Source of the DNA: Candidatus Saccharimonadota bacterium
Lineage (GTDB): Bacteria > Patescibacteriota > Gracilibacteria > UBA1369 > 2-02-FULL-48-14
Assembly (NCBI GenBank): GCA_016699145.1
Contig: CP064962.1
Coordinates: 1,110,001-1,142,000, forward strand
Direction: 5' to 3'
Length of the DNA stretch: 32,000 nt
In this document: in pieces, positions 10,399 through 26,738 of the stretch
Position numbering within the stretch: position 1 is the stretch's first letter
Layout of the letters: every line of letters starts with the position of its first letter
Translations under genes and position numbers: made by a program
Notes under the pieces: model-generated
What the model was told of the DNA's origin: nothing
Databases searched by the model: none
What the model saw: only the letters and a program-made list of their open reading frames with translations

Positions 10399-10430
10399 TC
10401 TTAAGAAACGTCATTTTAACCATTTACGTC

Positions 10431-11018
10431 ATGAATCTCAGTCCTCTTCGCCGACGAGCGTTCACTCTAATTGAGCTTTTAATTGTCATCACCATCATTG
10501 GGATTTTAGCCGTCGCGCTGATCCCAAGACTCACCGGAGGTCCCGGTCGCGCCCGCGATGCTCAGCGCCAAGCCGATTTGCAACAAATCGCAACGGCCAT
10601 GGAATTTTTGTACAACGACCGAGGGGCTTACCCCAATTTCTCTGGATGCGTCAGCGACATGACCGATCTCAGCAGCTATTTGACCACAGTACCCAGTGAT
10701 CCTTCCAGCCGCGCCGTTTCTGCCACTCACATCAGTGGAACAGGAGCTCCCACATGTTCAACAGGTTACGCGTATGTGGGCTTGAACGGAGGATCTGCTC
10801 CGACGAGCACCTATGGCACTTACAATTCCACCGGTTATTTGCTCATTGCTGATTTGGAAACAGAAACCACACGTGGGCAATCCATTTATGGAGGAGCCAC
10901 CGCCTTTGCCTTAACCTGGAATGCAACGGCAGCCAGCAATTTCAGCAGCAACTCTACTAAATTGTGTAGCAGTTCTTCGTGTACCGCGACCAATGTTTGG
11001 TTGATGTCCGGACGATGA
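10431..11018 (+). CDS. Type IV pilin / pseudopilin (class III signal peptide, GspG-like N-terminal helix)
   Basis: From the ATG at 10431 the protein reads MNLSPLRRRA-FTLIELLIVITIIGILAVALIPRL...ARDAQRQADLQQIATAMEFLYNDRGAYP. This carries the prepilin motif with Glu at +5. It has 195 aa, four Cys residues and a Ser/Thr/Gly-rich globular part. The track ORF start at 10302 overlaps pilC and would bury the signal peptide. Confidence 0.9.
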   Translation: MNLSPLRRRAFTLIELLIVITIIGILAVALIPRLTGGPGRARDAQRQADLQQIATAMEFLYNDRGAYPNFSGCVSDMTDLSSYLTTVPSDPSSRAVSATHISGTGAPTCSTGYAYVGLNGGSAPTSTYGTYNSTGYLLIADLETETTRGQSIYGGATAFALTWNATAASNFSSNSTKLCSSSSCTATNVWLMSGR

Positions 11019-11055
11019 TCTCAAGCTAGAAGCCATCTCAAAAAATCCAATTAAA

Positions 11056-11080
11056 GCCCTTCCCAGCGAGGGGCTTTTTT
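11056..11080 (+). terminator. Rho-independent terminator after the pilin gene
   Basis: GCCCTTC (11056-11062), CCAGC loop, GAGGGGC (11068-11074, with one G-U pair), then TTTTTT (11075-11080). Confidence 0.7.
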
Positions 11081-11161: not shown

Positions 11162-11170
11162 TGCTAGAAT
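11162..11170 (+). promoter_or_regulatory. Extended -10 promoter element (TGcTAGAAT) 9 nt upstream of the giant-gene ATG
   Basis: TG at 11162-11163 and TAGAAT at 11165-11170. No good -35 was seen. Only 9 nt separate the -10 from the ATG at 11180, which implies a leaderless or near-leaderless mRNA. Confidence 0.4.
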
Positions 11171-11179: not shown

Positions 11180-14100
11180 ATGAATCCGCACGCCACTCCA
11201 CGCTCCACGCGCTTGATCGTACTTGCAATTTTATTCACCTTATTTGCCTCCTTTTTGCCGATGGTTCGGGTGACGGAAGCGTTGAGCATCATTGGAAGGG
11301 CGCAATTGGAACTGAGCGGAAATCCTGGGGGAGGCTTGAATGAAATTCGTTCCGTAAGCCCGGTGGAAACACGTTACGACTTGGTGGTGATTTTAGTGGA
11401 TGAAGAAATCTGGAGCAGCTCATCCAGCGGTTCGGGCTTTTTTTCATTTTTAGGCACCGCGGCTCTGAACGAAAAAATTCAACGTTATGCCGAAGACGTG
11501 CAATCCGCTTTGCCGTGGACAAAAAGCATGATCGTGACGGTTTCGCCGGGAGATAGCACAGTAGACATACAGCGTTTTTTAGAAAAATTGTATTTTGAAG
11601 GGAATGCCGAGGACAGCGACGCCACGCGCCTTGCGGGAGTAGTAGCCGTGGGACAAGTGCCCTTGCCCGTGGTGAATAAAAACGGATACCGCTTCGTGTC
11701 TTTGCTGCCTTACACTGATTTTGAAGAACCTGCCTACATTGTGGACGAAGCCAGCCAAGATTTCGTACTCAACACGGGGGCTCAAAACCTTCAAGCAGAA
11801 GTCTGGCATGGAGTCTTAGTGCCTCCTTTGGGGGGACAAGACGGGGTGGATCTGCTCGCGGCTTACTTCGATAAAAATCATGCCTTCCACTCGGGGGAGG
11901 AAGAATACATCCGTTTTGATGAAAAAGTCTTCATCGCCGATTTTGTCACGGAGAGTCACACGCTGAATTCTGTGGCTTATGGCGCTTATGAACGTTACAC
12001 CAATTTGTGGGAAGACTTGGCTTACTACCGTTACACCAATGATTTGATTGAGGAAGTTTTCACCGAAATGCAAAGCACAGTGAATTCGGGGGACATGCTC
12101 GACAACGATTTTGACGGCAATTACGACGAAGAAGCCAGCAATAATATGGACGACGACGGAGATGGCCTGGTGGATGAAGATTTAGGGGACGGTTTTTTTG
12201 GGATAGACAACGATGGCGATGGTCTAGTGGATGAAGACGGCTCCGCAGATAATAACAACGACGAAGATCATTTGACCGACGAAGATCCTCCAGGGGATGC
12301 CAATGCCGACGGCTGTGCAGGGTATTGTGGCAAAGACGACAATGGGGACGCTTCAGACAGCGACGGAGACGGTTACCCCAATGGACTCGAAACAGTGCTG
12401 GGCACCGATCCTGCCGATGAAAGTGAACCTTGGAAATCGGTGCTCACCTTTTCGAATGCCGAACCTTATTCCTTCAATTTTTCTACTGCGGATGAAGCCA
12501 CCGACTACTGGGCAGCAGCTTTCACGGATCAATTTTTTGCTGGAAATGGACTGGACAGTTCCTGTTATTCGAATGGCGCTTATCACCCTGAATGGGACGA
12601 CGATGAAGACGGTTTCTGCGACGAAGATGGTTCCATCGAAATGCCTGCTGGAGCTTTTTGTGCGTACAACGATGCCGACTGCGACGGCACGGTGGATGAA
12701 GACACCCAAGGCTTGCAACCGCGCGCTTTGTTTGAAAATTTACCCGACTTGCAATCCAAAAAATTACTGGAAGGTTTGACTAAAAAATACGTCGAACTCT
12801 TCAGTGAGCCCCAAGGAGTTTGGAATCGAGTGGTCAGAGGCACGGGCCGCTACGAAGCTCAAGCGCTCGATTCGAATGAAAGGGCGCTCAGCGATTACGA
12901 CACGCCGATTTCTCTCATTTCTAAAAAAGATGAATACACTCTAGAGTATTTGCGTGCGGTCAACGACACCCTTGAAAGTTTGACCAACGACTTGGTCAAC
13001 GAAGAATTGGCTCGTCAAATTCCCGTCATTGGCATGATGGAACTCAGCGGCACCTACACTGCCGAAGAAGAAGACAGCGAAGCACAAGCCATTTGTACGG
13101 CGGGGGAAGCAGCAGATTTGACCAGTGACGCCTGTCTACAATTTTTCAATTCCGGATCCAGCGATGGAGTTTTTGATTCGGTGGATTTGCCGCACAATTC
13201 CATGGCTGAGTATGTCTCGTCCAACGACGCAGATAAAATTTATATGAACGGAACAGCCCTCACCGACATCGACAGTCCCGCGGCTTGTACCCTTTTCGCA
13301 GGGACTTATGAAGAGGACGGTCAGCTCTCGCAATTCAATGCCATGTACAGTACTGATCAGTTGGATTTGAACGTGAATGAAGTCCAGGATTACAAAAATT
13401 GTGTGCCCGAATTCGCTTCATATTTGGATGAGATCCCCGAGCTGTGTAGCGTGGCCACTGCCACCGAAGACATTCGCAATTTAGGTGGAGCCATTTCGGC
13501 GGATGAACTGGCCGAGCGCATCGGACAAACACCTGAAGAGGCCGCCTCCAATTGGGAAGTGGGTCCCGAAGCGTGTTACGAATTTCGAGAATTCACGACG
13601 TATAGCGTCTACTTGCAATCGAATGGACGTTTCAACGATTGGCTGTCTAAAAAACTTCGTAAATTTCAAAAGGACAGCGGACGCGACGAATCGGAATATG
13701 AAGAATTTTTAGAACGAGTTCAAGAAAGACGCGAAGAATGGGGACCCGACACTGTCACGCTCCGAAAACATTTTAGAGAACTGGATTTGATTTCTTCCAG
13801 CACCGAAATCACCTACACCGTCACCGACATGATGAATGATGTGCTGGGTTATAGAGAAGAGTGGAACGATGATGACATCGACACGTATTTGGCCCTGCAC
13901 GATGAAGACACGCCCATTGTTATTCAAAATCCTGAGTATGGATCGGGAACAGAAGATTTGGCGAACATCACGGTGTATTTGAACAAAGCCTATCTGAGGG
14001 AAGATTCGGAGTCCTTCACTTTGGACGAAGAGGAGGCCGAAATGATTTCTTCCAGCTATTATCACAACGAACCCAACTCAGCCACTTTGAACGCTCAGGC

Positions 14101-17100
14101 GGCCACTTTGGCTTCGCCCAATCTTCCCATTGATGCGACGCGTCGTGTGGTTTTCATTGATGAAGCGGATGAAAGTCAAACACTGAATTATGTGAATGCG
14201 TTCGATGCCAGCACCGTTTCTGACGTGCAAAACCAATTGGACATTTTAGCCGCTGCCGTCGCAAATGTTTCAGAGGGCAGCACTCATGCCAATGACGTGG
14301 AAAACTTCATGGATGCACTGAACGTTCATCAATTGGAAGATGCCCTCACGTGGTACCGTTTGAGCATCGATGAAAAACACGATTATGTGCTCAGTCACTA
14401 TTTGGGCAGCGAAGAGCCTGTTATTTCCAAGGCTCGCAACGGTTACGAAGTGGTGTCCATTATTGCCGATGGCAAGGCCGATGAAATGGTGGCTGCTTTT
14501 CATCCCGTAGACGAACAGGAAAGCGATTTGGAATTCATTTACAGGGATTTAGAATTGGCGGAAGCAGCCCTCTCGGAAGATCAAGCGCCCTCCCAACCCG
14601 AGCCACTCAGCGCCTTGAGCAACACCACTCCCGTAAACCTGTGGGAATGGTTTCCTGCCGTTGAAACTTGGCTGGGGGAACTGCGAAATTCGGTCAATAA
14701 TTTTGGAACCTATGGGGGCGGAGCCGTTTGTGGAGACGCTTCCGATTTTGTCCAAGAAAATGGAGATGAAGATGGGAATGGAATCCCCGATGGAGCAGAG
14801 GCTACGCTGCGTCTGACTTTAAGCAGTGAAGATTACAGTGTTTTAGAAGCCTATGGTTTAAATGGAGACACTTATGTGGTTTCGGTCAGTGCAAGGCAAG
14901 CAGACGATTCTTTGAATGCGCTCGATAACAACACCGAAATTCTGCTGCAAGTCGTCAGCGGCACTGCCAGTGCAGAAATTTTAGGAAGTTCCATTTTGCA
15001 GCTCAGCGGTGGAGTGGCCAGTTTTTCCATTGGCGGTCTGGAACCTGGCACCTTCACTTTACAAGCCTCCGCTAGCAACCGTGAAAATGTAACAAACTCC
15101 AATCTTTTGAGTGGAACGGTGGAGGAAAAACATTTGAAAGTGAGCACCTTCATTCGTGAAAATGCAGATGGAACCGTGCAAGAAAATCATTCAGGGCAGC
15201 GCATTGAAGTCAGGAACGAAAATGGAGAAGTAGTCGCCGTTTTAAATCCTGAAAATGGTGACTTGGAATTGCGCGGCGTGCAGGCCAAACTCTTGGAAGC
15301 CACTCCAAATTTGCCCACTCGTGTGAGCATTCAAGATTCGGAAGGCAGAACCTATGGTGTTTTCTTCCTCATCCCTGAAGTCAAAACGGTTGCAATAGGA
15401 GATGGCTATGCCGGGGTCTTTGTGGAAACCTTAGATTCAAGCCATGAAGCCCTCCCCACCGATGCAGGCGTGGGCCTCTTCAAAGACACTTTGCAAATGG
15501 GCCTTGTTACCGATCATGGACAAATTGCAGTGTCAGAAGGCTATCGTTTGGAATTTGAAAATCCCAGTGAAATAAATCTGTATGAGCCCTTGTACATCAC
15601 CAATTCAGCAGGAGAGCGTTTCTTCAAAGTGAGCATCAAACATTCCATTCAGCAGGGTTCTTTAGTGGAACCCACGGGCCTCTACGAAAATCATTTGAGC
15701 TTGAAACACAAAACGTGGTTCAAACGGGCCCTTGCGGCTTTAGTGATTCCCGATTACGACGCGGACGGATTGGACGATTTGGAAGAATGGGTGATTGGAA
15801 CGGAGACAAATCTCTCTGACACCGATGAAGACGGCTATTTGGATGGAACTGAAATTTTTTCGGGCTACAGTCCCTTGGAAGAAGAGGAAAAATTATTCAC
15901 TGATATCGATGGCTCTCATGAGGCCTATTACGCTCTGGCCACTTTGTATTTGCGAGGCATCGTCAAAGGGTACAGCGATGGCACATTTAGACCCGACAAT
16001 CCCATCACACGTGAAGAATTCATCAAGATCGACTTGGGTGCTATTTGTAAGGATTGCGACAGTTATGAATCCGCTTATGAAGAGGCGCTGATGGCGCTTT
16101 ACAACCAAGATCCTTTTCCGGATGAAAACATCAGTTCAGAACTTTTAGCCTGTGTCGCAGAGGCAAAAACATCAGGAATTGTTTCGGGCTATGCGGGAGG
16201 TGAAGAGGCCGGATTTTTCTTACCGAATCGCCAAATCAGTGTAGCAGAAGCGACGAAAGTTTTAGTTGAAACAGCCGGTTTTGAAAGCCGAACTCCCACG
16301 AGCAATGAAGCCTGGTACGTGGGTTATGTAGAAGCGGCACAAGAACACGATTTATTTCCTACCAATCAAGCCCTCACTCGGGAATGGTTGGAGGGAAGCA
16401 TCACGCGTGCAGAATTCGTGATGATGGCCGTGAATTTGGTGGAGGCACAGGATTGTCGCGCAGTGGACAATGATGCCGACTACTTGAGCGATGTGGAAGA
16501 AACCGTGCTCTATGGCACAAACCCTCAAAATGCAGACACCGATTTGGGCGGCGTGAGCGACTTTGATGAAATCGTTCGGAGCAGCGATCCTTTGAATGCC
16601 GAAGACGATTTCCCCGCTGACACTTCAGACCAAGAGCAGGAAGATTATTCTGCTTACAGTTCTTTTGAGCATGAAGCGGGGCTCTATTCCGTTTCCTCAA
16701 ACGATGCCTATGAAAGCATTACCGTGAATGCAGAAAGCGATTCAAGCGCCCCCAATGTGTATACAAACACTATACCCGCCGACGGAGAAGCCACTTTGTA
16801 TGTGCGTGCCGAAATCACGAATTTGGAAGGAAGCATTTATGTGGATGACAATAGCAGTATTGTCGAGTTTGTGCTTTCCAGTTCAGAACATGGGCGCTTG
16901 GACAGCAACCTCATACAAGTGCAAGGTGGGGTCGCAGAAGCAGTGTTCAACGCTTCCCAAAATGCCGGGGAACTGCATGTCAGTGCTCAAGTTCGTGAAG
17001 GGGCTCTTCCATATGAAGGCCAGACCATTGAGGTCTATGCAGGCCAACCCACTTCCATGAATTTAGCCTTGGAATCCACCGTCCTTCCCATGGGCGGACA

Positions 17101-18235
17101 AAGTGTAACGGAGGCCACTTTGACTCTCTACGATCGTTTTGGAAACGTGGCCAATTATGAGACGTATTCAGTGACTTTAGACAGCAATGAAGTGACCTTG
17201 CTCGACTTGACGGATGAAGACAACGAAACGCCCGGTTACCAAATCCGCATACAAAATGGAACGCAAGCTTTCCGCGTGCTTTCAAGCGTGGAGGCATCGA
17301 CAGGAACAATAATGGCAGCACTCACCGAGCAGCCCGATATTCAAGACAACATTGAATTGAATTCCGTGGAAGGACTGAATGTGAACGTGAGTCTTTCGGC
17401 TCCGTATCTTTTTGCTGGATCAGAAGGGACTCAAGAAGTGCTCATCACTGTGACCGATGCAGAGGGAACGCTGCAAACCGGTTTTCAGGGCGAAGTGAGC
17501 ATGAGCACCAGCGATCCCAATCACGGTCATTTTGATGAACCGACATTTTCTTTGAGTGAAGGCAGTGCCGCCGTGACCCTGACTGCCGGCACCTTGGCCG
17601 GCAACGGAGCAGTGCTGGTAGAAAGCGCGGGTTTGCAAACCGGCAGTGCAAATTTAGAAGTGAAACCCGCCGAGATTTACGAGTTGCGCATTCGAAAAGA
17701 CGACGGAGCGATGCGGGCTCAAGCAGGGGAACTAGAATATTTTTGGGTGGAGGGCTATGACGTGTACGGCAATCGTGTCACCACCGATAGCACAACCACA
17801 GGCACCTTACGGCTCACAGAAGCCAGCGCCGATTATGCCACTCTTTCGAGCGCCATTTTTCAACTGAATCAAGGCGCCGATCGCTTTGGCGTGCAAGTCG
17901 GCGAAGTCAGTGGAAGGCTCAGCATTGTGGCCAGTGCCCCTGCACTTTTGGCGGGAACTTGGGGTGGAAACATTGAATATTTCACAACAGGCGAGGAGCT
18001 GAGTGGCATGCAGCCTCAAATGCTCTATGCCAATGTTTTAGGAGCTCCTTTTGGAAATGTAAATGAAGAAAATTACGTGGCGGGTTGGCTGCTCTTCAAT
18101 GAAAAACTCAAGCCATCAGCAGTTTGGTTTCTGAGCCAAAACCCCATAAACCTTTGGCTTCTGTGGATGCTGAAGGAAACATCACACTGGCCGAAGATGG
18201 ACTGCTCACTCAAGTCGTGGAAGGCGCAGCAATGA
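11180..18235 (+). CDS. Giant secreted/cell-wall-anchored mosaic surface protein, part A (real coding probably ends at the frame break near 18102-18106)
   Basis: The N-terminal signal or anchor is MNPHATPRSTRLIVLAILFTLFASFLPMV. Asp-rich Ca-binding repeats include DDDGDGLVDED, DNDGDGLVDED and DSDGDGYPNGLETVLGTDPAD. Ig-like repeats are present. An SLH triplet begins FTDIDGSHEAYYALATLYLRGIVKGYSDGTFRPDNPITREEF (15895-16450). Four invasin-type Ig-like repeats span 16760-17960. Confidence 0.9.
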   Translation: MNPHATPRSTRLIVLAILFTLFASFLPMVRVTEALSIIGRAQLELSGNPGGGLNEIRSVSPVETRYDLVVILVDEEIWSSSSSGSGFFSFLGTAALNEKIQRYAEDVQSALPWTKSMIVTVSPGDSTVDIQRFLEKLYFEGNAEDSDATRLAGVVAVGQVPLPVVNKNGYRFVSLLPYTDFEEPAYIVDEASQDFVLNTGAQNLQAEVWHGVLVPPLGGQDGVDLLAAYFDKNHAFHSGEEEYIRFDEKVFIADFVTESHTLNSVAYGAYERYTNLWEDLAYYRYTNDLIEEVFTEMQSTVNSGDMLDNDFDGNYDEEASNNMDDDGDGLVDEDLGDGFFGIDNDGDGLVDEDGSADNNNDEDHLTDEDPPGDANADGCAGYCGKDDNGDASDSDGDGYPNGLETVLGTDPADESEPWKSVLTFSNAEPYSFNFSTADEATDYWAAAFTDQFFAGNGLDSSCYSNGAYHPEWDDDEDGFCDEDGSIEMPAGAFCAYNDADCDGTVDEDTQGLQPRALFENLPDLQSKKLLEGLTKKYVELFSEPQGVWNRVVRGTGRYEAQALDSNERALSDYDTPISLISKKDEYTLEYLRAVNDTLESLTNDLVNEELARQIPVIGMMELSGTYTAEEEDSEAQAICTAGEAADLTSDACLQFFNSGSSDGVFDSVDLPHNSMAEYVSSNDADKIYMNGTALTDIDSPAACTLFAGTYEEDGQLSQFNAMYSTDQLDLNVNEVQDYKNCVPEFASYLDEIPELCSVATATEDIRNLGGAISADELAERIGQTPEEAASNWEVGPEACYEFREFTTYSVYLQSNGRFNDWLSKKLRKFQKDSGRDESEYEEFLERVQERREEWGPDTVTLRKHFRELDLISSSTEITYTVTDMMNDVLGYREEWNDDDIDTYLALHDEDTPIVIQNPEYGSGTEDLANITVYLNKAYLREDSESFTLDEEEAEMISSSYYHNEPNSATLNAQAATLASPNLPIDATRRVVFIDEADESQTLNYVNAFDASTVSDVQNQLDILAAAVANVSEGSTHANDVENFMDALNVHQLEDALTWYRLSIDEKHDYVLSHYLGSEEPVISKARNGYEVVSIIADGKADEMVAAFHPVDEQESDLEFIYRDLELAEAALSEDQAPSQPEPLSALSNTTPVNLWEWFPAVETWLGELRNSVNNFGTYGGGAVCGDASDFVQENGDEDGNGIPDGAEATLRLTLSSEDYSVLEAYGLNGDTYVVSVSARQADDSLNALDNNTEILLQVVSGTASAEILGSSILQLSGGVASFSIGGLEPGTFTLQASASNRENVTNSNLLSGTVEEKHLKVSTFIRENADGTVQENHSGQRIEVRNENGEVVAVLNPENGDLELRGVQAKLLEATPNLPTRVSIQDSEGRTYGVFFLIPEVKTVAIGDGYAGVFVETLDSSHEALPTDAGVGLFKDTLQMGLVTDHGQIAVSEGYRLEFENPSEINLYEPLYITNSAGERFFKVSIKHSIQQGSLVEPTGLYENHLSLKHKTWFKRALAALVIPDYDADGLDDLEEWVIGTETNLSDTDEDGYLDGTEIFSGYSPLEEEEKLFTDIDGSHEAYYALATLYLRGIVKGYSDGTFRPDNPITREEFIKIDLGAICKDCDSYESAYEEALMALYNQDPFPDENISSELLACVAEAKTSGIVSGYAGGEEAGFFLPNRQISVAEATKVLVETAGFESRTPTSNEAWYVGYVEAAQEHDLFPTNQALTREWLEGSITRAEFVMMAVNLVEAQDCRAVDNDADYLSDVEETVLYGTNPQNADTDLGGVSDFDEIVRSSDPLNAEDDFPADTSDQEQEDYSAYSSFEHEAGLYSVSSNDAYESITVNAESDSSAPNVYTNTIPADGEATLYVRAEITNLEGSIYVDDNSSIVEFVLSSSEHGRLDSNLIQVQGGVAEAVFNASQNAGELHVSAQVREGALPYEGQTIEVYAGQPTSMNLALESTVLPMGGQSVTEATLTLYDRFGNVANYETYSVTLDSNEVTLLDLTDEDNETPGYQIRIQNGTQAFRVLSSVEASTGTIMAALTEQPDIQDNIELNSVEGLNVNVSLSAPYLFAGSEGTQEVLITVTDAEGTLQTGFQGEVSMSTSDPNHGHFDEPTFSLSEGSAAVTLTAGTLAGNGAVLVESAGLQTGSANLEVKPAEIYELRIRKDDGAMRAQAGELEYFWVEGYDVYGNRVTTDSTTTGTLRLTEASADYATLSSAIFQLNQGADRFGVQVGEVSGRLSIVASAPALLAGTWGGNIEYFTTGEELSGMQPQMLYANVLGAPFGNVNEENYVAGWLLFNEKLKPSAVWFLSQNPINLWLLWMLKETSHWPKMDCSLKSWKAQQ

Positions 18236-21200
18236 CCTTGCCCACGCGCATGCAATGGCGCTCTTTCCCTGACCAAATTTTGCAAGCTGAACTCTTTTTT
18301 GTGCATGGAGAAGCAGCCGTTTATGAGGCCCATTTAGTGGAAGAAAACAATGCCTACAGTCTTTTGGAAGAAGACGGCGTCACTTCGCTTTTGAAAAATT
18401 CAGGCGTGCTAGCAAGAGTGCGTGCCGATGGACAAATCGAACTCCTCGATCCCAGTCTCTACTTGATTGTGAATGCCGCAAATCAAGGCCTGAGCTTGGC
18501 CGTGATGGAGAATGGACAAGCCGTGCTTCAAGTCAATTATGAAAGAGTTTGGGAAGAAGACGTGACTTTGCTGGAAAGCGATCATGACCTCACTGATTGG
18601 TCCAGCTTGAACGCGGGCATTTACATCAAACCCACCGCAGACAATGAGCATGCTTTCGAACCCATTTCTAGCGGCAACAGTTCTTTGAGCCCTCAAGGCT
18701 TGGCCTTGGTGGATCCTACGGAAGAATTGCCCAAAGAAATGCAGGCTTCCCTGGGCTACACTTCTTTAGATCAAGCAGAAGAAGATGGAACTGTGGGTTG
18801 GGAAAAAGAGAATAAAAATCTGCTGCTATTCAGTGCTGGGAACACTGCAGGCGTCTCGAATCTTTTTTATGTTTCGGAAGTCGGAATACTGCTGGGCGAC
18901 CCCACGGTGAGCTTGCCAACCGCCAATGAAGCCAACAGTTTAGGTTTCACCGAAGATGTGGGGACACTGATTTCTGCTTCCCAAGATGAGATTTTAGAGC
19001 TCGTGGATATCGATTACAACGGCGATGGACAAATGGACGTGCTGGTGGCTTACGAAGACGGACGCATTGAAGTTTTGCAAAATCACCAAGCCGCGCAGCG
19101 TTTGCGTTCTCGCGGAACATTGTTGAAAATTGAAAATGGAATCCGTTCCATCGATAAAGGGGACTTCAATGCCGATGGACTAACCGATCTGTTGATCGTC
19201 ACAGAAGAATCTTGCTATGCCGATGAAATGTGCCTTTATGAATACGACAACATTGGCGGTGGTTTTGTAGCTAAAAATTTAAGTTTTTCAGACATTGCAG
19301 CTCAGCCCGAGCAAGTGGAAGTCAGCGATTTGAACAACGATGGTTATGATGATTTGGTTCTGGCCGATGAAAACATGGTTTTGTACACGGTGTGGAACAG
19401 CGCGGGCGGTTTTTATGCGGTGGATGAGATCAAAGATTTTGGACTGCACAGCGACTCCAGCATAGATTTGGCCTCTCAAATGCTCTTGCGCTACAGCGGT
19501 TTGGACAGCGGTTCCGTATCCTTACCCATAACGGTGGATGCTCGTGACACCGGCAATGCTCAATTGGACCGCTTTTTAAATGCTGTGGATACAGCCAGTG
19601 CTTTCACTTTGGAAACCGATGGAGAAAATGGGGGAGGGCTGGAGCAAAAAGCAGACACCCTTTTTGAACATGCCAATGCCGAAGTTTTCAATGATGTGTT
19701 TTCCGTCAGCAAGTCCATGTCCGATGAAAATGGAGGCACAGCTGAAGTAGGGGATGAATTGACCTACACACTCACGCTGCAAAACATTTCAGGAACAACG
19801 CTCAACAACATTTATATTTCAGACACCGTGGATGCGGTCTTCCAATTCAATGCCGAAAGTTTGACCTGCAGCGATTGCAGCGCAGTGAACCTCAGTGAGG
19901 CACAATTTGTCCCCGCAGATGCCACTCGACCTTTTGTGTTTGGCCCCCTCGACCTTGCAAACGGAGCGGATCTAACTTTGACTTATCATGCAGAATTGAT
20001 GCACTTGCCGCAACTTGCTTTGATGGTGGGCAACGATTTATTTGGAGATTATGTGGACGACGACCGGCCCGATATTGGAGTTTCATTGGATGGAAACACC
20101 ACCGGAGAACTGATGGTTTATTACTCCGATGGCAGTTATACAGAAACCTTGGAAGAAGGAATTTTGGGTTCCGATTTAGGAGCCATGACCGTAGAGCATG
20201 TGCATTATGCCGAAAGAAATTATTCGCCCAGCACTTATGCCGAGGAGCATGAAACCGAACGAGCCAGTCCTTTTGAAGATGCCGATGAAGACGGTGTCCC
20301 CGATTTCATGGGTGAAATGGATCCGGAATTGGGCATCCCTGTACCGGACAGCGGTTACGATGCCGTTGCCGAAGTGTTAGGGGGAAGTGATCAAGATGGA
20401 AATGGATATTATTCCAGTCAGGAAATGTTCAGCAGCGACGTGGATGCGGACAACGATGGTCTTTACGATACCATCGATCGATCCAATGCAGGCGAAGGAT
20501 TGATTTTAGATCCGGCCTTGGATTTACTCGTTGGGGAGGGTGCAGAAATCGATGCCGAAGTCGCTCTTTTGGATGAACAAATTTCCGGCCTCACCAATCA
20601 AGTAGAAGAAGTTGTTTCCAGCTTCACTTGCGATGGCGGCTGTTTGGCCTTGCCGGGTAGTGTGGCTTTCTTAGCCAGTGGTACTTTTCACGATCCTTTC
20701 ACGGGAACGCCTTTGGGTTACGACGTCGGTACACCAGTCTTTGGCATCATGCCCAATCCTAGTTATGTGTGCACCGCCACCGCCTGCCAAGCCACCAGCG
20801 TGCTGCGCATTTACATTGCCCCAACCACCACGCTCGGTCTCGGCCTCGGAGTCTGTGTTGCTCCTTACGCCGTGGGTCAATGTTACGCTTTCAATATACC
20901 ACTTTTACAAGCCCTAGGAGTCTGTGATGCCATCAATGGATTCGTAGCGGACTCCCTTTCAAAAGCCAGTGATTTTGTAGAAGAAAATGGAACCGTGGCT
21001 TTGAATGTCCTAGGGTCTTCTGGTGGAACCGTGGCTGCCCCAAGTGGGCTTTCCAGTTCATCGTACGCAAACTACAGTCCGCCCCTTTCCACTCAAACCA
21101 ACATCGACATACCCGGCTTTCCTTCTGTTTTCACAGAATGGTGGAAGGCTCAAAAAATGGAGTTTTTCAAAATGTTGGATTTGCCAGATATCACCTTCAT

Positions 21201-24200
21201 TTATCCTGATCCGAAAAGCCTTTCTTCCGAGTTTGGTGGCATACGTCAAAGGGCCCAAGAAGAATCGGTGAGCTTGGATCAGGCAAGCAATCCCATGGTT
21301 TTGGATCACGAAATCAAGATTCAAGAAATGAGCAGTGGAATTTTAAATTTAGACAAGTGGTTGAACATGGCTCATGCACTTCCGATCATCGATATCCAAA
21401 CCGAAAAAGTCTACATCCACTACCCTGCTTTGACGGAAGAAGAAGTAGAAATTTTTCAAAAAGACATGGGAGAGTGGACGGTTCGTACAAAGAGCAATTT
21501 TGCCATTTTCAAAGAGCAATTTGAATTGCGCCGCTTGGCAGGCGAAGAAATTTCTGCCGCAGAAGAGCAGGCTTATGATGAACTGGTGCTTGCGGTGGAT
21601 GAGGCCATTACGGCGGTGGAGAGCAACATGGCCATTTTAGAGTCTTATAAAGACATCCCTGAGCAAATTTTGGAAATCCGAACTATGCAAGCGCAGTATG
21701 CCAAAGTCATTGTTTGTTATTTGGACGCCATCTTGGATTACACGGCTGGATATTTAAGTGAAAATTTACAACGAGTGGAAGCGTGGGCTCAATTCGTAGT
21801 CGATCTGCGCGACGTGGTGGATGGATGGCAAGTGCTCATCGATTTGTCCGCGGATTTCATGGACTCTTGTGATAAATGCACAAATCAACGCTACAGCGGT
21901 TTACAATTGCTCTTCAGCCTCTTCGTTTTCATGCCGGAATTTCCGGTGGTGGAATTGCCTAAACTCCCCGACATCGTCATCGATGTGTCTCATATTCAAG
22001 CGGGAGTAGACATCCTTTGGCCCGACATTGAATTTGTCCCGGAACGCATTGACATCCCTGAATTGCCCGAATTGGTTTTCCCCTCGGCACGATTCAACTT
22101 AGACACGGAACTGGACATCGATTTGGATATCCCGACTCTGCCCGAATTCCAATTGAATTTTGAGTTGCCACAACTTCCTGCGTTGACTTTGCCTGAGCTG
22201 CCTTCGCTGCCCCCGCCCCCCAGCATTCCAGAATTGGATCCCACTTTAAAAGCCTCTCTCGAAGTTGCCAGCAATGTTTTGAAACTGGTGTGCATCATCC
22301 GTTCAGGTTTTATTCCTACGCCAGAAAGCCAACTCAAAGCCCGCATTGAAGAAATCACAGAGCGTCCCGGTGGCACCTTTGTGGCCGCAGATTTTGCAAG
22401 CACCGTGGAATGGCCTGCCTTCAACTATGACTTTTTGAAACGCATCGAAATCAATACCTATTTGAATTTGAATGCCGACTTCACTCCTCTCTTCGATGTG
22501 ATGGAACATTTGGGGGCTCAAACCGAAGAATTGAGTGAAAACACGGCAGAAGGAATTTCGGGTCCTTTACAAGATTTGGCCAATGAAATTCAAGAGGCAC
22601 TCACAGGTGCCGGTGAAAACACCAGCATCGATATCGATGCAGAATTGAATGTGGATTTGGAAAGCTATGTGCATCCGGCGGTTCAAACGGCTGAACTTTA
22701 TAAAGACGATCCTTTGGTGCAACAAAATTTAATAGCCTTGCAGCAAGTCATGCATTCCTTACAAAGCCAAATCGATGCTTGGGCCAAAGATTTGCCAGAA
22801 GAAGTGCGCTTGGAGGCTACCGATCGACTTTTGGCCTTGGATGATCCATTGCTGAATCGTTACGACGAAATCGCAAAAGAAAATCCCAACTTAGACCCTG
22901 AATTTTTAGCCAGCATTCAAGAAACGCCACTCGTAGGTGTATTGAATTTGAAGAATTCTCTTTTGGCGCATGTTCAAAATCTGGATGCAGAAAACACCCG
23001 CCTATTGGTCATGGACGATGAAAATTTCTTCCGAACTTTGGCTGCCGAATCGTCTTCCTCTCATTTTGAACTCGCAGCGACTCAAGAAGAAGGATACAGC
23101 ACGGCAGCTGAATGGAATTTAAACGCTCTTAAAAAAACCTCCTTGGATGAAGTAGAATTGAGCACCGAAAGCGGAGCACCCGAAATAGAATCCTTGGATT
23201 TGGAAGTGCAAAATCAGGCCTTCAATACGGGGCTTTACATTTACAATGCAGAAGCAGATGTGAGCACTCGCCTCACGGCCTATGCAGCCGAAACCGACGA
23301 GACCACTCATATTTTGTTCATGGACGTGGATCAAGATGGCGATGAAGATGTGATTTATTCATTGGGAGGCGATGTCTACATCAAAGAAAATCACAACGAA
23401 AGTCCCCGTTTGCAGTACGTGAGCACCGATCCTTCGGAAGTAACGCTTTCCGAAGAATTGCCCGCAGCCGGCTCCATGCAAAAATTTGAGGAAAAGAAAA
23501 ACACTCATGGAGAAAGCAGTTTTGCGTTTGGAGCTTCCTATGAAGCAGTGGGTTATGAGTTCACCATGTACGATTCCCTCGACGCTCAAGAGGCAGCTCC
23601 CAATGAAAATGTGAAACGTTTGCTTCTTTTATCGGAGGAAGAAAATCTCAAAGGAGTTTGGTCATCGGAAGGAGATTTTACTGCAGAAACTTCTGGGAAC
23701 CCCGCCATGCCCAGCGTTGCAATGAGTCGATTGGTTGCCACTGCAGTGAGTGGCAATGTGCAGCTTAAAAACGGAGCCGCACGCACTTTCATTCACGACA
23801 ATGCCGAATGGGAAACGAGTGAACCCGTGCTGCTGCAAACCGTGAGTCCGGCGGTCTTGGAGCTGACTTACGAAGAAAGTGAAGCTCGTTTGGAAGTCCC
23901 AGCCTACACGGTTTTGAGTTTTGGAAATGATGTGGGGCGGCGCATACGTTTAGAAAGTGGAGAAGCTTATATGATTGATCCAGACACATTTCTGACAGAA
24001 CAAGATTTAGAGGAAGGCATGATGATTTTTGCTGGAGAAATAGTGGATTTAGAAACGTCAAACGCCGAGGCAACACTGTCGACTACGGAAGGAGGAGTCT
24101 TCCATTTGGATGAGGAAGAAGTCTTTGTGATGGATCGTTTACTCAGTCCAGAAAGCCCTTCTGCACAAGTTCAGCTTGAAAATGGAGCGTACTACACGGT

Positions 24201-26160
24201 GGGCCGGGCTCTCTACGGCGATGGCAATTCAAGCACTCTTTCTGATAATATTCTGCTCAACCCTCAAATTTGTGGCGATGATTCCGAGCCCATGATCATT
24301 TCACCAGATCGTTTGGATTTAGCCATCTTCTCCACCACTGATATTTCTGCGGATCAATCCTTCGATAGCACGAGTGAAATCATCGATGCATATTGGGATC
24401 TGGATGCCAATGTGGATGCCGATGGAGATGGAGAATTCACCAACGATGAAGAGCGTTTCGGATTGAACACCAGCATTGGTCCCTACACCGATTTAGAACC
24501 CAAAACAGTCACCCTTCACGTGGTGGATTCAGCAGGAAACATCGCTCGCAGAAGCATTGAAGTGAACTTGTACGTGCCTGCCATTGAAGTACACACGGCC
24601 ACTCCCGAAGTCGTTGCAGGAGGCACCGATCCTTCCAGCCCCCATTTCCCTTTCACCTTGGTGCGTGAACGCGAAGGAACTTTAAAAGAATTGGGCGCCT
24701 ACATGACAGATGAAGACGGCAATTTCATACTCCCCATGCAGAATTCAGATTTGCTTGCCGTTTATAACGCCGAGGGCCTGTCCATTGCCGAATTCAATCC
24801 CTTGACCAAGCAAGTCCAAATTTTAGATGAAGATTATGAGGTGAGGTTCATCACCGCTTCTGAAACGTGGCCTTCTCATCTTGCAGTGTATGAAAAATCC
24901 ACAGGCATTGTGATGGGTAATTTTATTTTCGTCACCGATTCCAGCTTGCCGATCACTCGTTTGGGAACCCCGCTTTCAGACTATGATTTGAGCACCTTAA
25001 ATCGTGTCACGGTTCACAGTGTGAACGACCCCAACGGTTATGATTTTGCAAACACTTCCATCACCGCTTACGATGAACTTGGGAACTTAGATTTCAAGCT
25101 CAGCAACACCGGGAACATCACCGTATTTGACTCACGTTACACTGTACTGCGTCGCGAAGCCGATTCGCTTGAAGATCCTTTGATTTTGGAAGTTTATGAC
25201 GAAGGCACTTTGGAGTTGGAAATCTGGCCCGGCATGGACAGCACTGTCTATTTAGAAACCACCGATGATTTGAATTTGCCGGCCTCTGCCCTCATTGAAA
25301 ACCATGGGTCTTCCACTCAAGACACGGAGCTTTATTTTGAAGACATTGATGCCGATGATCCTTTGTATGAAAAAATCACAGAACTCGTGCAGCGAAATGT
25401 GCTCGAAGGTTATGAAGTGGATGGCGATCGTTACTTTAAACCTGACAATCAAATCAACCGTGCCGAATTCACAAAAATCATTTTGAGTATTTTGTGCATT
25501 GTTCCTCGCGACGAAGCGGAAATTTTACCCGCTGTCTTCAACGATATTTTGAATGAATCTTCATGGTATTATCCCTATACAAAAGAGTCTTATTTATCGG
25601 GACTCATCACGGGTTATCTTGGTGAAAAAGATGCGACAGGATTGACTCCTTTTAAACCAGAAAACACCATCACCAGGGCCGAAGCGAGCAAAATTGTTTT
25701 GGAGGCATTGAATGCAGAAGGAGTGATTCGTTTGCCCGATCTGCAAAGCGACGGTGCATGGTACGAACCTTATATGGAAATTGCACAAGATTTAAGCCCC
25801 TACATGACGGGGGAAAGCACCGCGGGAACCAGCAATCATCTGCTCACTGCAGAAGAAGCTGCTCTGCCCAACCACGTGCTCACTCGCTATGAATTTGTAG
25901 AAATGTCCGTGCGCGTGCTGCAAGCCTACAATTGTTTTGCACTGGAAACTCCAAGCGATTATTTCAATGATGAAACCGAATGGCTACCCGGAATTCATGC
26001 GCTGCGTGAAGCGTGCAACACTTGTCCTTGTGTTTCTCAAGTGGATTATGCAGCAGAACTTAGACCGGGTGACTTTGTATTTGCTATAATCCAAAATGAA
26101 TGGGGTGAAATCTTTGGAGTGAGCCCCTCGGTAGAAATCCTTGCCCCTTCCTCGCCATGA
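18124..26160 (+). CDS. Giant mosaic surface protein, part B (frame open from 18103; most likely a continuation of part A)
   Basis: There is no ATG, signal peptide or promoter at its 5' end. FG-GAP/VCBS repeats are present (DYNGDGQMDVLVAYEDG, GDFNADGLTDLLIV, SDLNNDGYDDLVLAD). A DUF11-like segment reads GDELTYTLTLQNISGTTLNNIYISDTVD. A PKD-like domain spans 24340-24580. A C-terminal SLH triplet begins FEDIDADDPLYEKITELVQRNVLEGYEVDGDRYFKPDNQINRAEF (25334-25935). Confidence 0.9.
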   Translation: MVSEPKPHKPLASVDAEGNITLAEDGLLTQVVEGAAMTLPTRMQWRSFPDQILQAELFFVHGEAAVYEAHLVEENNAYSLLEEDGVTSLLKNSGVLARVRADGQIELLDPSLYLIVNAANQGLSLAVMENGQAVLQVNYERVWEEDVTLLESDHDLTDWSSLNAGIYIKPTADNEHAFEPISSGNSSLSPQGLALVDPTEELPKEMQASLGYTSLDQAEEDGTVGWEKENKNLLLFSAGNTAGVSNLFYVSEVGILLGDPTVSLPTANEANSLGFTEDVGTLISASQDEILELVDIDYNGDGQMDVLVAYEDGRIEVLQNHQAAQRLRSRGTLLKIENGIRSIDKGDFNADGLTDLLIVTEESCYADEMCLYEYDNIGGGFVAKNLSFSDIAAQPEQVEVSDLNNDGYDDLVLADENMVLYTVWNSAGGFYAVDEIKDFGLHSDSSIDLASQMLLRYSGLDSGSVSLPITVDARDTGNAQLDRFLNAVDTASAFTLETDGENGGGLEQKADTLFEHANAEVFNDVFSVSKSMSDENGGTAEVGDELTYTLTLQNISGTTLNNIYISDTVDAVFQFNAESLTCSDCSAVNLSEAQFVPADATRPFVFGPLDLANGADLTLTYHAELMHLPQLALMVGNDLFGDYVDDDRPDIGVSLDGNTTGELMVYYSDGSYTETLEEGILGSDLGAMTVEHVHYAERNYSPSTYAEEHETERASPFEDADEDGVPDFMGEMDPELGIPVPDSGYDAVAEVLGGSDQDGNGYYSSQEMFSSDVDADNDGLYDTIDRSNAGEGLILDPALDLLVGEGAEIDAEVALLDEQISGLTNQVEEVVSSFTCDGGCLALPGSVAFLASGTFHDPFTGTPLGYDVGTPVFGIMPNPSYVCTATACQATSVLRIYIAPTTTLGLGLGVCVAPYAVGQCYAFNIPLLQALGVCDAINGFVADSLSKASDFVEENGTVALNVLGSSGGTVAAPSGLSSSSYANYSPPLSTQTNIDIPGFPSVFTEWWKAQKMEFFKMLDLPDITFIYPDPKSLSSEFGGIRQRAQEESVSLDQASNPMVLDHEIKIQEMSSGILNLDKWLNMAHALPIIDIQTEKVYIHYPALTEEEVEIFQKDMGEWTVRTKSNFAIFKEQFELRRLAGEEISAAEEQAYDELVLAVDEAITAVESNMAILESYKDIPEQILEIRTMQAQYAKVIVCYLDAILDYTAGYLSENLQRVEAWAQFVVDLRDVVDGWQVLIDLSADFMDSCDKCTNQRYSGLQLLFSLFVFMPEFPVVELPKLPDIVIDVSHIQAGVDILWPDIEFVPERIDIPELPELVFPSARFNLDTELDIDLDIPTLPEFQLNFELPQLPALTLPELPSLPPPPSIPELDPTLKASLEVASNVLKLVCIIRSGFIPTPESQLKARIEEITERPGGTFVAADFASTVEWPAFNYDFLKRIEINTYLNLNADFTPLFDVMEHLGAQTEELSENTAEGISGPLQDLANEIQEALTGAGENTSIDIDAELNVDLESYVHPAVQTAELYKDDPLVQQNLIALQQVMHSLQSQIDAWAKDLPEEVRLEATDRLLALDDPLLNRYDEIAKENPNLDPEFLASIQETPLVGVLNLKNSLLAHVQNLDAENTRLLVMDDENFFRTLAAESSSSHFELAATQEEGYSTAAEWNLNALKKTSLDEVELSTESGAPEIESLDLEVQNQAFNTGLYIYNAEADVSTRLTAYAAETDETTHILFMDVDQDGDEDVIYSLGGDVYIKENHNESPRLQYVSTDPSEVTLSEELPAAGSMQKFEEKKNTHGESSFAFGASYEAVGYEFTMYDSLDAQEAAPNENVKRLLLLSEEENLKGVWSSEGDFTAETSGNPAMPSVAMSRLVATAVSGNVQLKNGAARTFIHDNAEWETSEPVLLQTVSPAVLELTYEESEARLEVPAYTVLSFGNDVGRRIRLESGEAYMIDPDTFLTEQDLEEGMMIFAGEIVDLETSNAEATLSTTEGGVFHLDEEEVFVMDRLLSPESPSAQVQLENGAYYTVGRALYGDGNSSTLSDNILLNPQICGDDSEPMIISPDRLDLAIFSTTDISADQSFDSTSEIIDAYWDLDANVDADGDGEFTNDEERFGLNTSIGPYTDLEPKTVTLHVVDSAGNIARRSIEVNLYVPAIEVHTATPEVVAGGTDPSSPHFPFTLVREREGTLKELGAYMTDEDGNFILPMQNSDLLAVYNAEGLSIAEFNPLTKQVQILDEDYEVRFITASETWPSHLAVYEKSTGIVMGNFIFVTDSSLPITRLGTPLSDYDLSTLNRVTVHSVNDPNGYDFANTSITAYDELGNLDFKLSNTGNITVFDSRYTVLRREADSLEDPLILEVYDEGTLELEIWPGMDSTVYLETTDDLNLPASALIENHGSSTQDTELYFEDIDADDPLYEKITELVQRNVLEGYEVDGDRYFKPDNQINRAEFTKIILSILCIVPRDEAEILPAVFNDILNESSWYYPYTKESYLSGLITGYLGEKDATGLTPFKPENTITRAEASKIVLEALNAEGVIRLPDLQSDGAWYEPYMEIAQDLSPYMTGESTAGTSNHLLTAEEAALPNHVLTRYEFVEMSVRVLQAYNCFALETPSDYFNDETEWLPGIHALREACNTCPCVSQVDYAAELRPGDFVFAIIQNEWGEIFGVSPSVEILAPSSP

Positions 26161-26738
26161 ATCTATTTTTGAATCAAAAACGTTTTATTCAAAGCAGCCT
26201 CGTTGTGCTTCTTCTTTTGAGCTCCACCCTGTGGGTGCAAGCCGATGAGAGCAATTCTTTAGAACTGTACGGAGTTGAAGATTATGCCTGTGCTGCAAAT
26301 CTTGCCGCTGCGGCCGCTCCCATTTTGGAAAATTATGAAAACGTTATGGATCAGTATATGAAAGTGGATGAACCCACGAGTGAACAATTTGAAAATGCCT
26401 TCATGCTTTATCGTTACGTCGAAGACAGCATTCAAGAAGAGTATCAAAACAACGCAACAACTTTGGGGGTCAATAAAAGTTTGTCTTTTTCAAATGAAGA
26501 ACTTTCCGTATGTCGAAACATGCGCGATCAACTGCTTGAATATTCCCGCAGCTTCATTTCCATTTTTATATCCGGTGCAAGTGCATCCAAAACCACCTTT
26601 GAATTTGTGGATGGTTTAAAGTCCATGAATGCCGATTTGAAAGACATGTCTCTTTTATTTCAACGCACTTTTCCAGGTCAATTCGTAGAAATGTCCAATG
26701 CTCTCCCTTGCTACGCTCATCAATGCCTAACTCAATGA
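26157..26738 (+). CDS. Secreted helical protein P1 (193 aa), member of the C-terminal-Cys set
   Basis: The ATG overlaps the giant-gene stop (ATGA at 26157-26160). The signal peptide is MNLFLNQKRFIQSSLVVLLLLSSTLWVQA. The protein ends ...ALPCYAHQCLTQ. Confidence 0.85.
   Translation: MNLFLNQKRFIQSSLVVLLLLSSTLWVQADESNSLELYGVEDYACAANLAAAAAPILENYENVMDQYMKVDEPTSEQFENAFMLYRYVEDSIQEEYQNNATTLGVNKSLSFSNEELSVCRNMRDQLLEYSRSFISIFISGASASKTTFEFVDGLKSMNADLKDMSLLFQRTFPGQFVEMSNALPCYAHQCLTQ

What the first reader, a model, noticed from the sequence alone, without database searches (positions are those of the whole stretch)
11180..26160. A single ~15-kb gene (about 4,990 codons) for a mosaic cell-surface protein, broken once at an A5 run
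Part A (frame 2) starts with a signal or anchor peptide directly behind an extended -10 element. Part B (frame 1) has no ATG, since its track start is TTG. It also has no signal peptide, promoter or RBS, and its frame is already open from 18103.

Adding one A to the A5 run at 18102-18106 gives a seamless junction: ...VAGWLLFNEKTQAISSLVSEPKPHKPLASVDAEGN.... The uncorrected frame-2 tail (KLKPSAVWFLSQNPINLWLLWMLKETSHW...) is Trp/Leu-rich nonsense that stops after about 40 codons.

The fused product would combine these modules:
- Ca-binding Asp-rich repeats
- Ig-like repeats
- FG-GAP/VCBS repeats
- DUF11-like and PKD-like modules
- two SLH triplets

Well over a third of it (for example 12430-14750 and 20950-24300) matches nothing I recognise. 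A protein of this size next to a pilus operon is a prime candidate adhesin or host-contact factor.
Basis: partly seen in the sequence, partly recalled or inferred. Interest (0 to 1): 0.72.

Follow-up and report, generated by a model that had tools for sequence, protein, structure and literature searches.

The report
Giant Peregrinibacteria surface-protein gene, one-base break
The two long reading frames are one roughly 15-kb gene for a giant wall-anchored surface protein typical of tiny symbiotic Peregrinibacteria, and the single missing base that splits it is most likely a sequencing or assembly error rather than biology.

Summary
ORF A (11180-18235) and ORF B (open from 18103 to 26160) join seamlessly at 18101-18106 into a 4,993-aa protein.

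Eight orthologous loci and two fragments read straight through the junction. Three loci with enough flanking sequence each carry one 5,010-5,246-aa ORF in the same gene order. Of 149 family representatives, 133 match both halves.

One refinement: orthologues also have the A5 run (GGA AAA ACn). The window lacks a G of a Gly codon that is Gly in 97 of 108 relatives and never Glu. The repaired junction is therefore FNGKTQA, not FNEKTQA.

The break is probably an artefact:
- Part B is as conserved as part A.
- uvrA (A6 run, 31198-31203) and an IS481 transposase (about 1838) show the same seamless one-base deletion in purine runs.
- The source is a single 1.34-Mb Peregrinibacteria MAG contig, where part B is annotated as QQR54753.1.

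The protein has a signal peptide, Asp-rich repeats, two SLH triplets, Ig-like domains, FG-GAP and DUF11. It also has a family-defining central module of about 700 aa with no known fold. It follows type IV pilus genes. Host or surface attachment is inferred, not shown. It is a new member of a known kind.

The parts
11053..11077 (+). Intrinsic-terminator-like hairpin plus T-run ending the upstream pilin gene. It separates the pilus genes from the giant gene's own transcription unit.
   Evidence: Comparable GC hairpins with T-runs are visible upstream of the giant gene in L003 and L005.
11162..11170 (+). Extended -10 element TGcTAGAAT, 9 nt before the ATG. No Shine-Dalgarno sequence is present, so a leaderless or near-leaderless mRNA is likely (inferred).
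   Evidence: Sequence. TTTG[CT]TA[GA][AG]AT is conserved 6-9 nt before the ATG in window, L003, L004 and L005. The simple sigma-70 scan found no -35/-10 pair.
11180..18235 (+). Part A as it stands (frame 2, 2351 aa). The homologous part ends at 18106. Positions 18107-18235 are an out-of-frame tail.
11180..11284 (+). N-terminal signal or anchor peptide (aa 1-35; hydrophobic core aa 8-35; ...VTEA|LS).
   Evidence: Hydropathy scan. The same pattern (LPM.QV..ALSI) occurs in L003, L004 and L005.
11357..12079 (+). Conserved N-terminal domain (aa 60-300; motifs PYTDF, E.WHG, DKNH) with no family assignment.
   Evidence: Present in about 110 of 149 family representatives. No Pfam hit in the window or in three relatives.
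12092..12712 (+). Asp-rich, Ca-binding-type repeats (TSP3-like), aa 305-511. A second short set lies at 15746-15865.
   Evidence: TSP3_bac 19.8 bits, below the 25-bit cut-off. D+E fraction is 0.27.
15896..16450 (+). First SLH triplet (aa 1573-1757).
   Evidence: Pfam SLH 75 bits. PDB SLH proteins 8bz2/8bym match. Three TR(A/E)EF-type units are seen by inspection.
16745..17653 (+). Ig-like (Invasin_D3 / Big_1 / Big_3_2-type) domains.
18095..18109 (+). Frame-break site: TTC AAT G-A AAA ACT. The A5 run is at 18102-18106. One base is missing, most likely a G of GGA.
18103..26160 (+). Part B (frame 1). The homologous reading resumes at 18106 (TQAISS...). It is annotated in GenBank from GTG 18163 as QQR54753.1.
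18982..19515 (+). FG-GAP (integrin-alpha-type) repeats.
   Evidence: FG-GAP_3 58 bits, FG-GAP 39 bits.
19702..19995 (+). DUF11 / TIGR01451 repeat domain.
20626..22668 (+). Family-defining central module (fused aa 3150-3830). It contains a Cys-rich beta part, long helical hairpins, the short hydrophobic stretch LQLLFSLFVFM, and Pro-rich PxLP repeats. No known family or fold matches.
   Evidence: 506 representative proteins match it, mostly 3,500-6,000 aa. Invariant Cys/Pro/Trp columns. AF2 pLDDT 65, reaching 85-92 for residues 271-416. No Pfam, PDB-sequence or Foldseek-PDB match.
25336..25929 (+). Second SLH triplet (fused aa 4720-4917).
   Evidence: Pfam SLH 47.8 bits, two stretches. Three units are seen by inspection.
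26157..29993 (+). Four co-oriented downstream genes (193, 214, 533 and 352 aa). All have signal peptides, none has a family hit, and each ends with a Cys 2-4 residues from the C-terminus. The first start overlaps the giant gene's stop (ATGA).
   Evidence: The first three are syntenic in L003 and L004.
6084..11018 (+). Upstream type IV pilus genes: PilM/N-like (416 aa), PilO-like (191 aa), PilB ATPase (T2SSE), PilC platform (T2SSF) and a pilin (N_methyl).
   Evidence: The order is the same in L003, L004 and L005.

Best explanation
Positions 11180-26160 are one gene of 4,993 codons. It is a member of a large family of giant (about 3,500-6,000 aa) surface proteins of Peregrinibacteria/Peribacteria, which belong to the CPR (Candidate Phyla Radiation) bacteria.

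Likely mode of action (inferred):
- The gene is transcribed from its own conserved extended -10 promoter, probably as a leaderless mRNA. It heads an operon with four small secreted proteins, directly downstream of the type IV pilus assembly genes.
- The product is exported by Sec through an N-terminal signal peptide.
- Two SLH triplets, one mid-protein and one C-terminal, tie it non-covalently to the cell wall.
- Displayed modules are an unassigned N-terminal domain, Ca-binding Asp-rich repeats, Ig-like domains, an FG-GAP (integrin-like) region, DUF11 and a central module of about 700 aa with unknown fold.
- Its most likely role is attachment to a host cell or surface.

The frame break. It is a one-base deletion, most probably of a G in the conserved Gly codon GGA that precedes the A5 run. 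I judge it most likely a base-calling or assembly error in the source MAG. A very recent real mutation is the next possibility. It is not a designed feature.
For: Shown: one gene.
- Orthologues at 43-65% identity in this segment are continuous across the junction in 8 loci and 2 fragments.
- Single ORFs of 5,047, 5,010 and 5,246 aa occur in the same synteny.
- 133 of 149 representatives match both halves, and 111 span the junction in one stretch.
- No family member ends at the junction. The only one that begins near it (P0023) is a contig-end partial.

Shown: which base is missing.
- Orthologues read TTC AAy GGA AAA ACn, whereas the window reads TTC AAT G-A AAA ACT.
- Position 2308 is Gly in 97 of 108 relatives and never Glu.

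Supporting an artefact or a very recent event.
- Part B shows no in-frame stop in 2,684 codons.
- Part B identity to orthologues (0.56/0.52/0.55) is not lower than part A (0.53/0.49/0.54).
- uvrA has a seamless one-base deletion at an A6 run, with the UvrA model matched at 485-751 and 752-940 on either side.
- An IS481 transposase is restored to a single model match (27-282) by one base at GCAAAGGATT.
- The source contig is a single 1,338,973-bp MAG sequence.

Surface role.
- Signal peptide conserved.
- SLH, FG-GAP, DUF11 and Ig-like hits.
- Large extracellular FG-GAP proteins in Peribacteria are reported in PMC4736985.
- Giant DUF11/integrin surface proteins in the CPR predator Vampirococcus are reported in PMC8080830.

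Promoter. The extended -10 is conserved in 4 of 4 loci.
Against: - No reads were available, so the deletion could be real.
- The sequencing technology of the source genome is not known to me. A single 1.34-Mb contig only suggests long reads.
- Transposase and uvrA pseudogenes do occur in reduced genomes.
- Strain variation in Peribacteria concentrates in large surface proteins (PMC4736985), though as in-frame indels.
- The attachment function rests on domain types and context only.
- About 40% of the protein, including its most conserved module, has no assignable fold.
- SLH anchoring needs a pyruvylated wall polymer, which was not examined.
Confidence: 0.72

Rival explanations
1. The one-base deletion is real and recent. 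This strain carries a truncated allele. Part A (2,351 aa, with signal peptide, N-terminal domain and first SLH triplet) could still be exported and wall-anchored. Part B is untranslated, or made only by rare ribosomal slippage on GA-AAA-A.
For: - The deposited genome carries the break, and part B is annotated separately as QQR54753.1.
- Part A is self-sufficient for export and anchoring.
- Large surface proteins are the main site of strain variation in Peribacteria (PMC4736985).
- tRNA-Lys on AAA at 18104-18106 can re-pair with AAA at 18103-18105.
Against: - Part B shows no decay at all.
- Two further seamless one-base deletions in purine runs occur within 32 kb, one of them in uvrA. This is more than expected for a streamlined genome and typical of indel-prone assemblies.
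- No other family member is split here.
Confidence: 0.22
2. The break is a designed recoding or switching site: programmed -1 ribosomal frameshifting, transcriptional slippage, or homopolymer phase variation that controls how much full-length protein is made.
For: - The shift needed is -1, and it lies on an A-run where a single tRNA-Lys slip is possible.
- Surface adhesins are classic phase-variable genes (general knowledge).
Against: - All orthologues are in frame with the same A5 run.
- There is no in-frame X XXY YYZ heptamer (GAA AAA CTC).
- The downstream RNA is not unusually structured (z = -0.83).
- A5 is far shorter than tracts known to slip in transcription or replication (general knowledge).
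- The missing base appears to be a G, not an A.
Confidence: 0.03
3. These are two separate genes: an N-terminal exported protein and an independent 2,665-2,678-aa protein starting at TTG 18124 or GTG 18163, as in the GenBank annotation.
For: Only the GenBank annotation of part B as its own protein.
Against: - Part B has no signal peptide, promoter or terminator signals near the junction.
- Homology runs without a gap across the junction in every relative.
- The frame-2 tail has no homologue.
- The family norm is one ORF.
Confidence: 0.02

Closest known systems
Large extracellular proteins of 'Candidatus Peribacter riflensis' (Anantharaman et al. 2016, PMC4736985)
   Same: - Same lineage by orthologue record titles.
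[quoted passage not shown]
- Proposed role in attachment.
- Genomes also encode S-layer and type IV pilus genes.
   Different: - The paper reports proteins up to 3,861 aa and stresses Cys-rich ones, whereas this one is 4,993 aa and only locally Cys-rich.
- The family, its central module and its fixed position behind pilB-pilC-pilin are not described there, as far as I read.
- Direct orthology to a P. riflensis gene was not tested.
Giant membrane or surface proteins of the CPR predator Vampirococcus lugosii (Moreira et al. 2021, PMC8080830)
   Same: - Giant proteins (up to 4,163 aa) with DUF11, integrin and PKD-type domains in a CPR episymbiont.
- Found beside a rich type IV pilus repertoire.
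- Inferred host recognition and fixation.
   Different: - Different order (Absconditabacteria, alternative genetic code).
- Homology to this family was not tested.
- No SLH anchoring is reported there.
Omnitrophota giant genes preceded by T2SS/T4P-like loci (West-Roberts et al. 2023, bioRxiv 10.1101/2023.11.21.568195)
   Same: A giant gene sits directly downstream of gspE/gspF-type ATPase and platform genes and pilin-like genes. This is the same arrangement as pilB-pilC-pilin-giant here.
   Different: - Different phylum.
- Those genes are far larger (tens of thousands of aa) and are implicated in cell-wall degradation.
- No shared domains were demonstrated.
- Here a terminator and a dedicated promoter separate the giant gene from the pilus genes.
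SLH-anchored S-layer-associated proteins of Gram-positive bacteria (solved SLH proteins 8bz2, 8bym, 8bys)
   Same: SLH triplets are recognisable by Pfam and by PDB sequence search. The expected mechanism is non-covalent binding to a secondary cell-wall polymer (general knowledge).
   Different: - This protein has two triplets, one internal and one C-terminal, in a single 5,000-aa chain.
- The internal triplet is present in only about a third of relatives.
- The wall polymer and its pyruvylation enzyme were not examined.
RTX-type giant adhesins secreted by type I systems (LapA, SiiE, Marinomonas MpIBP)
   Same: Multi-thousand-residue, acidic, Ca-binding, Ig-repeat-rich surface adhesins (general knowledge).
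   Different: - This protein has an N-terminal Sec signal instead of a C-terminal T1SS signal.
- No RTX nonapeptide (HemolysinCabind) hit and no long tandem array of near-identical repeats.
- No T1SS genes in the window.

Membership tests
Unnamed Peregrinibacteria giant surface-protein family (defined here by the central module) | Collinear homology over both halves of the protein in a single ORF. | tested here: met
   49-56% identity along all tiles to three full-length orthologues. 133 of 149 representatives match both halves.
Unnamed Peregrinibacteria giant surface-protein family (defined here by the central module) | The roughly 700-1,000-aa central module with invariant Cys/Pro/Trp columns. 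| tested here: met
   A profile of window + P0003 + P0004 finds 506 representatives, 309 at E<=1e-30. Invariant columns are listed.
Unnamed Peregrinibacteria giant surface-protein family (defined here by the central module) | Position directly downstream of pilB-pilC-pilin and upstream of small secreted proteins. | tested here: met
   Window, L003, L004 and L005. This could only be checked in these four loci.
SLH-anchored cell-wall proteins | SLH domains, usually in threes, above the Pfam threshold. | tested here: met
   PF00395 at 75.2 and 47.8 bits against a 20.8-bit cut-off. Three units each are seen by inspection.
SLH-anchored cell-wall proteins | A pyruvylated secondary cell-wall polymer (CsaB) in the same organism. 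| not testable with these tools
   Only 32 kb of the genome is available.
Integrin-like FG-GAP beta-propeller proteins | Multiple FG-GAP repeats above threshold. | tested here: met
   FG-GAP_3 at 58 bits (2 stretches) and FG-GAP at 39 bits (3 stretches). A complete seven-bladed propeller was not modelled.
RTX / type I-secreted giant adhesins | RTX nonapeptide repeats, a C-terminal T1SS signal and adjacent ABC/MFP genes. | tested here: not met
   No HemolysinCabind hit at E<=0.1. The protein has an N-terminal signal peptide. No T1SS genes in the window.
Type IV pilus tip adhesins (PilY1/PilC type) | PilY1/Neisseria PilC domain, encoded within a minor-pilin operon. | tested here: not met
   No such Pfam hit. 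The downstream genes lack pilin N-termini. A terminator and a dedicated promoter separate the gene from the pilin.
Programmed -1 ribosomal frameshift genes | In-frame slippery heptamer X XXY YYZ. | tested here: not met
   The zero frame reads AAT GAA AAA CTC.
Programmed -1 ribosomal frameshift genes | Downstream stimulatory RNA structure. | tested here: not met
   Positions 18107-18200 give z = -0.83 against shuffles.
Programmed -1 ribosomal frameshift genes | The two-frame arrangement is conserved in relatives. | tested here: not met
   All relatives are in one frame.
Phase-variable contingency genes | A long, length-variable homopolymer or short tandem repeat at the break. | tested here: not met
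   The A5 run is also present in in-frame orthologues. The missing base is most likely a G. Read-level heterogeneity is not testable here.

The most novel reading that the evidence does not exclude
The giant protein, its four co-transcribed Cys-terminated secreted partners and the adjacent type IV pilus genes may form one conserved host-contact apparatus of Peregrinibacteria. In this reading the central module of about 700 aa is a previously undescribed device that engages or perturbs the host envelope. That module matches no fold and consists of long helical hairpins followed by a short hydrophobic stretch and PxLP repeats. A still less likely reading is that the frameshift is real and the strain tunes full-length output by rare slippage on GA-AAA-A.
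Probability: 0.15. Interest if true: 0.65.

Novelty: new member of a known kind. Interest (0 to 1): 0.33.

Why it matters
Practical value:
- Two GenBank proteins of this MAG should be one 4,993-aa protein.
- The same 32 kb shows three one-base deletions, a warning about indel errors across that genome.

Biological value:
- The gene belongs to a family of at least 500 sequence clusters of 3,500-6,000-aa proteins that seems characteristic of Peregrinibacteria.
- The family sits in a fixed place behind the type IV pilus genes.
- Its most conserved module has no known fold.
- CPR bacteria are thought to live attached to hosts, so this family is a reasonable target for finding out how attachment works.

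None of this is surprising given published reports of giant surface proteins in CPR genomes.

Tried and rejected
Searches and models that gave nothing:
- AlphaFold2 of fused aa 3100-4000 with a 3-sequence alignment failed (pLDDT 32).
- A 29-sequence alignment gave a moderate model (pLDDT 65). Foldseek against PDB returned only generic helical bundles at E>1.
- PDB sequence searches with single sequences and with a 5-sequence whole-protein profile found only SLH proteins.
- The word-indexed protein search found 2, 2 and 0 relatives for three tiles. Giants of this lineage are poorly reached by that index. The exhaustive profile search was what revealed the family.
- Pfam on N-terminal domains of three relatives found no hit.
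- Self-comparison found no significant internal repeats, and the four downstream proteins show no similarity to each other.

Attempts to trace the source:
- Exact look-ups of window proteins in the contig index failed, so no same-strain contig or read-level evidence could be obtained.
- Literature searches for the source genome found nothing.

Rejected readings: programmed frameshift, phase variation and two separate genes (see rivals). An IS3-type programmed frameshift for the transposase was also rejected in favour of a broken IS481 single ORF.
Full report
**What is in the sequence**

ORF A runs 11180..18235 in frame 2 (2351 aa, ATG start). ORF B is listed as 18124..26160 in frame 1 (2678 aa, TTG start). 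The sequence at the break is TTC AAT GAA AAA CTC, with the A5 run at 18102-18106. A TGA at 18100-18102 closes frame 1, so that frame is open from 18103. After 18106 the frame-2 reading is Trp/Leu-rich and stops at 18235. One extra base joins the two frames into a 4,993-aa product.

**One gene or two**

A 900-aa query centred on the junction found an ENA fragment, P0001, at 51% identity. It aligns without a gap across the junction.

- A scan of species-representative genomes gave three loci from Peribacteria or 'Gracilibacteria' MAGs.
- Each of these has a single ORF of 5,047, 5,010 or 5,246 aa.
- Each shows the same gene order: PilO-like, PilB, PilC, pilin(s), giant gene, then small proteins of about 195, 215 and 600 aa.
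- A metagenome scan gave five further orthologues, all continuous over the 900 residues.
- An exhaustive profile search with the central part of part B found 506 representative proteins, nearly all 3,500-6,000 aa long.
- Of the 149 best representatives, 133 match both part A and part B. In 111, one aligned stretch crosses fused residues 2280-2340.
- None ends at the junction. The only one that begins near it is a contig-end partial.

The single-gene reading is therefore the family norm.

**Which base is missing**

Orthologues read TTC AAy GGA AAA ACn CAG, which translates to F-N-G-K-T-Q. Most of them carry the same A5 run. The window reads TTC AAT G-A AAA ACT CAA. Position 2308 is Gly in 97 of 108 relatives and never Glu. 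The frame outcome is the same either way.

**Artefact, mutation or design**

Part B has no stop in 2,684 codons. It is as similar to the orthologues (0.56/0.52/0.55) as part A is (0.53/0.49/0.54). The break is therefore either very recent or not real.

Two more breaks of the same kind lie in the same 32 kb.

- uvrA, on the minus strand, is split at an A6 run (31198-31203). Its two pieces match the UvrA model at positions 485-751 and 752-940.
- A transposase split into 1568..1945 and 1765..2484 becomes one protein when a base is added at GCAAAGGATT. That protein matches the IS481 model 27-282 in a single stretch.

All three breaks are seamless one-base deletions in purine runs.

Part B, called from GTG 18163, is identical to GenBank QQR54753.1. 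That entry is named 'S-layer homology domain-containing protein [Candidatus Peregrinibacteria bacterium]' and sits on a 1,338,973-bp contig. A single-contig genome of an uncultivated bacterium suggests long-read assembly, where such deletions are the usual residual error. This last point is my inference, because I could not identify the sequencing method.

Programmed recoding is not supported.

- Relatives are in frame.
- There is no in-frame slippery heptamer.
- The downstream RNA is ordinary (z = -0.83).
- An A5 run is too short for efficient slippage.

My estimates are about 0.72 for an error, 0.22 for a real recent mutation, and the remainder for other readings.

**What the protein is**

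Supported features are:

- A conserved N-terminal signal peptide.
- An Asp-rich, TSP3-like region that scores below the Pfam threshold.
- Two SLH triplets (aa 1573-1757 and 4720-4917).
- Invasin/Big-type Ig domains.
- FG-GAP repeats.
- DUF11/TIGR01451.

'PKD-like' was not supported at E<=0.1.

The family core comprises the N-terminal domain (aa 100-300), aa 1900-3000, the central module (aa 3100-3800) and aa 4300-4900. The internal SLH triplet and aa 300-500 and 700-900 are variable.

The central module has invariant Cys, Pro and Trp positions. Its AlphaFold2 model has pLDDT 65, with confident long helical hairpins. It has no Pfam, PDB-sequence or Foldseek-PDB match.

**Context and expression**

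- A terminator-like hairpin (11053-11077) follows the pilin gene.
It lies 6-9 nt before the ATG, with no Shine-Dalgarno sequence, which suggests a leaderless transcript.
- The giant gene's stop overlaps the start of the first of four downstream genes. These encode secreted proteins with no family hit, and each ends with a Cys close to the C-terminus.

**How it most likely works**

This is inferred from domains and context.

- The protein is exported by Sec.
- It is held on the wall by its SLH triplets.
- It displays integrin-like, Ig-like and Ca-stabilised modules for binding a host cell or surface, alongside type IV pili.

This matches published views of large extracellular proteins in Peribacteria (PMC4736985) and of giant DUF11/integrin proteins in Vampirococcus (PMC8080830). 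The pairing of a giant gene with a T2SS/T4P-like locus also resembles the Omnitrophota giant genes (bioRxiv 10.1101/2023.11.21.568195). It is not an RTX/T1SS adhesin and not a PilY1-type tip adhesin (see the membership tests).

**Verdict**

The lost base is probably a G, and the break is probably an assembly error. The gene is a new member of a known kind, so interest is modest. The points worth keeping are the size and coherence of this uncharacterised family and its central module, which matches no known fold.

Noticed in passing
window 30620-32000 (- strand), break at 31198-31203: uvrA, which runs off the window end, is split by a one-base deletion at an A6 run. The two pieces match the UvrA model at 485-751 and 752-940 without a gap.
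   Followed up: yes
window 1568-2484 (+), break near 1838-1842: An IS481-family transposase is split into two overlapping ORFs. Adding one base at GCAAAGGATT restores a 305-aa protein that matches the IS481 model in one stretch. It is a third deletion-type break, not an IS3-style programmed frameshift.
   Followed up: yes
window 2485-3486: About 1 kb between the transposase and rplJ has no ORF of 100 aa or more and no Rfam match, even at E<=1. rplK/rplA would be expected upstream of rplJ. This is unexplained. It could be a badly broken gene, IS-associated debris or an unknown RNA.
   Followed up: partly
window 11100-11145; L003 4180-4225; L004 4280-4325: An upstream motif, CAAGTyGAAAy(N7)AACrGrTTAAA, lies about 35-75 nt before the giant gene's ATG. 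It is shared by window, L003 and L004 but not L005. It may be a regulator site or a -35-region element.
   Followed up: partly
window 26157-29993 (+): Four secreted proteins (193, 214, 533 and 352 aa) lie downstream of the giant gene and have no family hits. Each ends with a Cys 2-4 residues from the C-terminus (CLTQ, AQCK, NYCK, KQCN). The first three are syntenic in L003 and L004, and the first start overlaps the giant gene's stop.
   Followed up: partly
window 4494-6017 (+) and 122-1165 (+): Two sizeable ORFs (507 aa and 347 aa) have no Pfam or NCBIfam match. The first lies between rplL and the pilus genes.
   Followed up: no
window 6084-7902 (+): The pilus genes upstream of pilB are very divergent. 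The 416-aa protein gives only a weak PilN hit (E = 4e-4) at its C-terminus, and the 191-aa protein gives no hit, although it is conserved at 48% identity in L003.
   Followed up: partly
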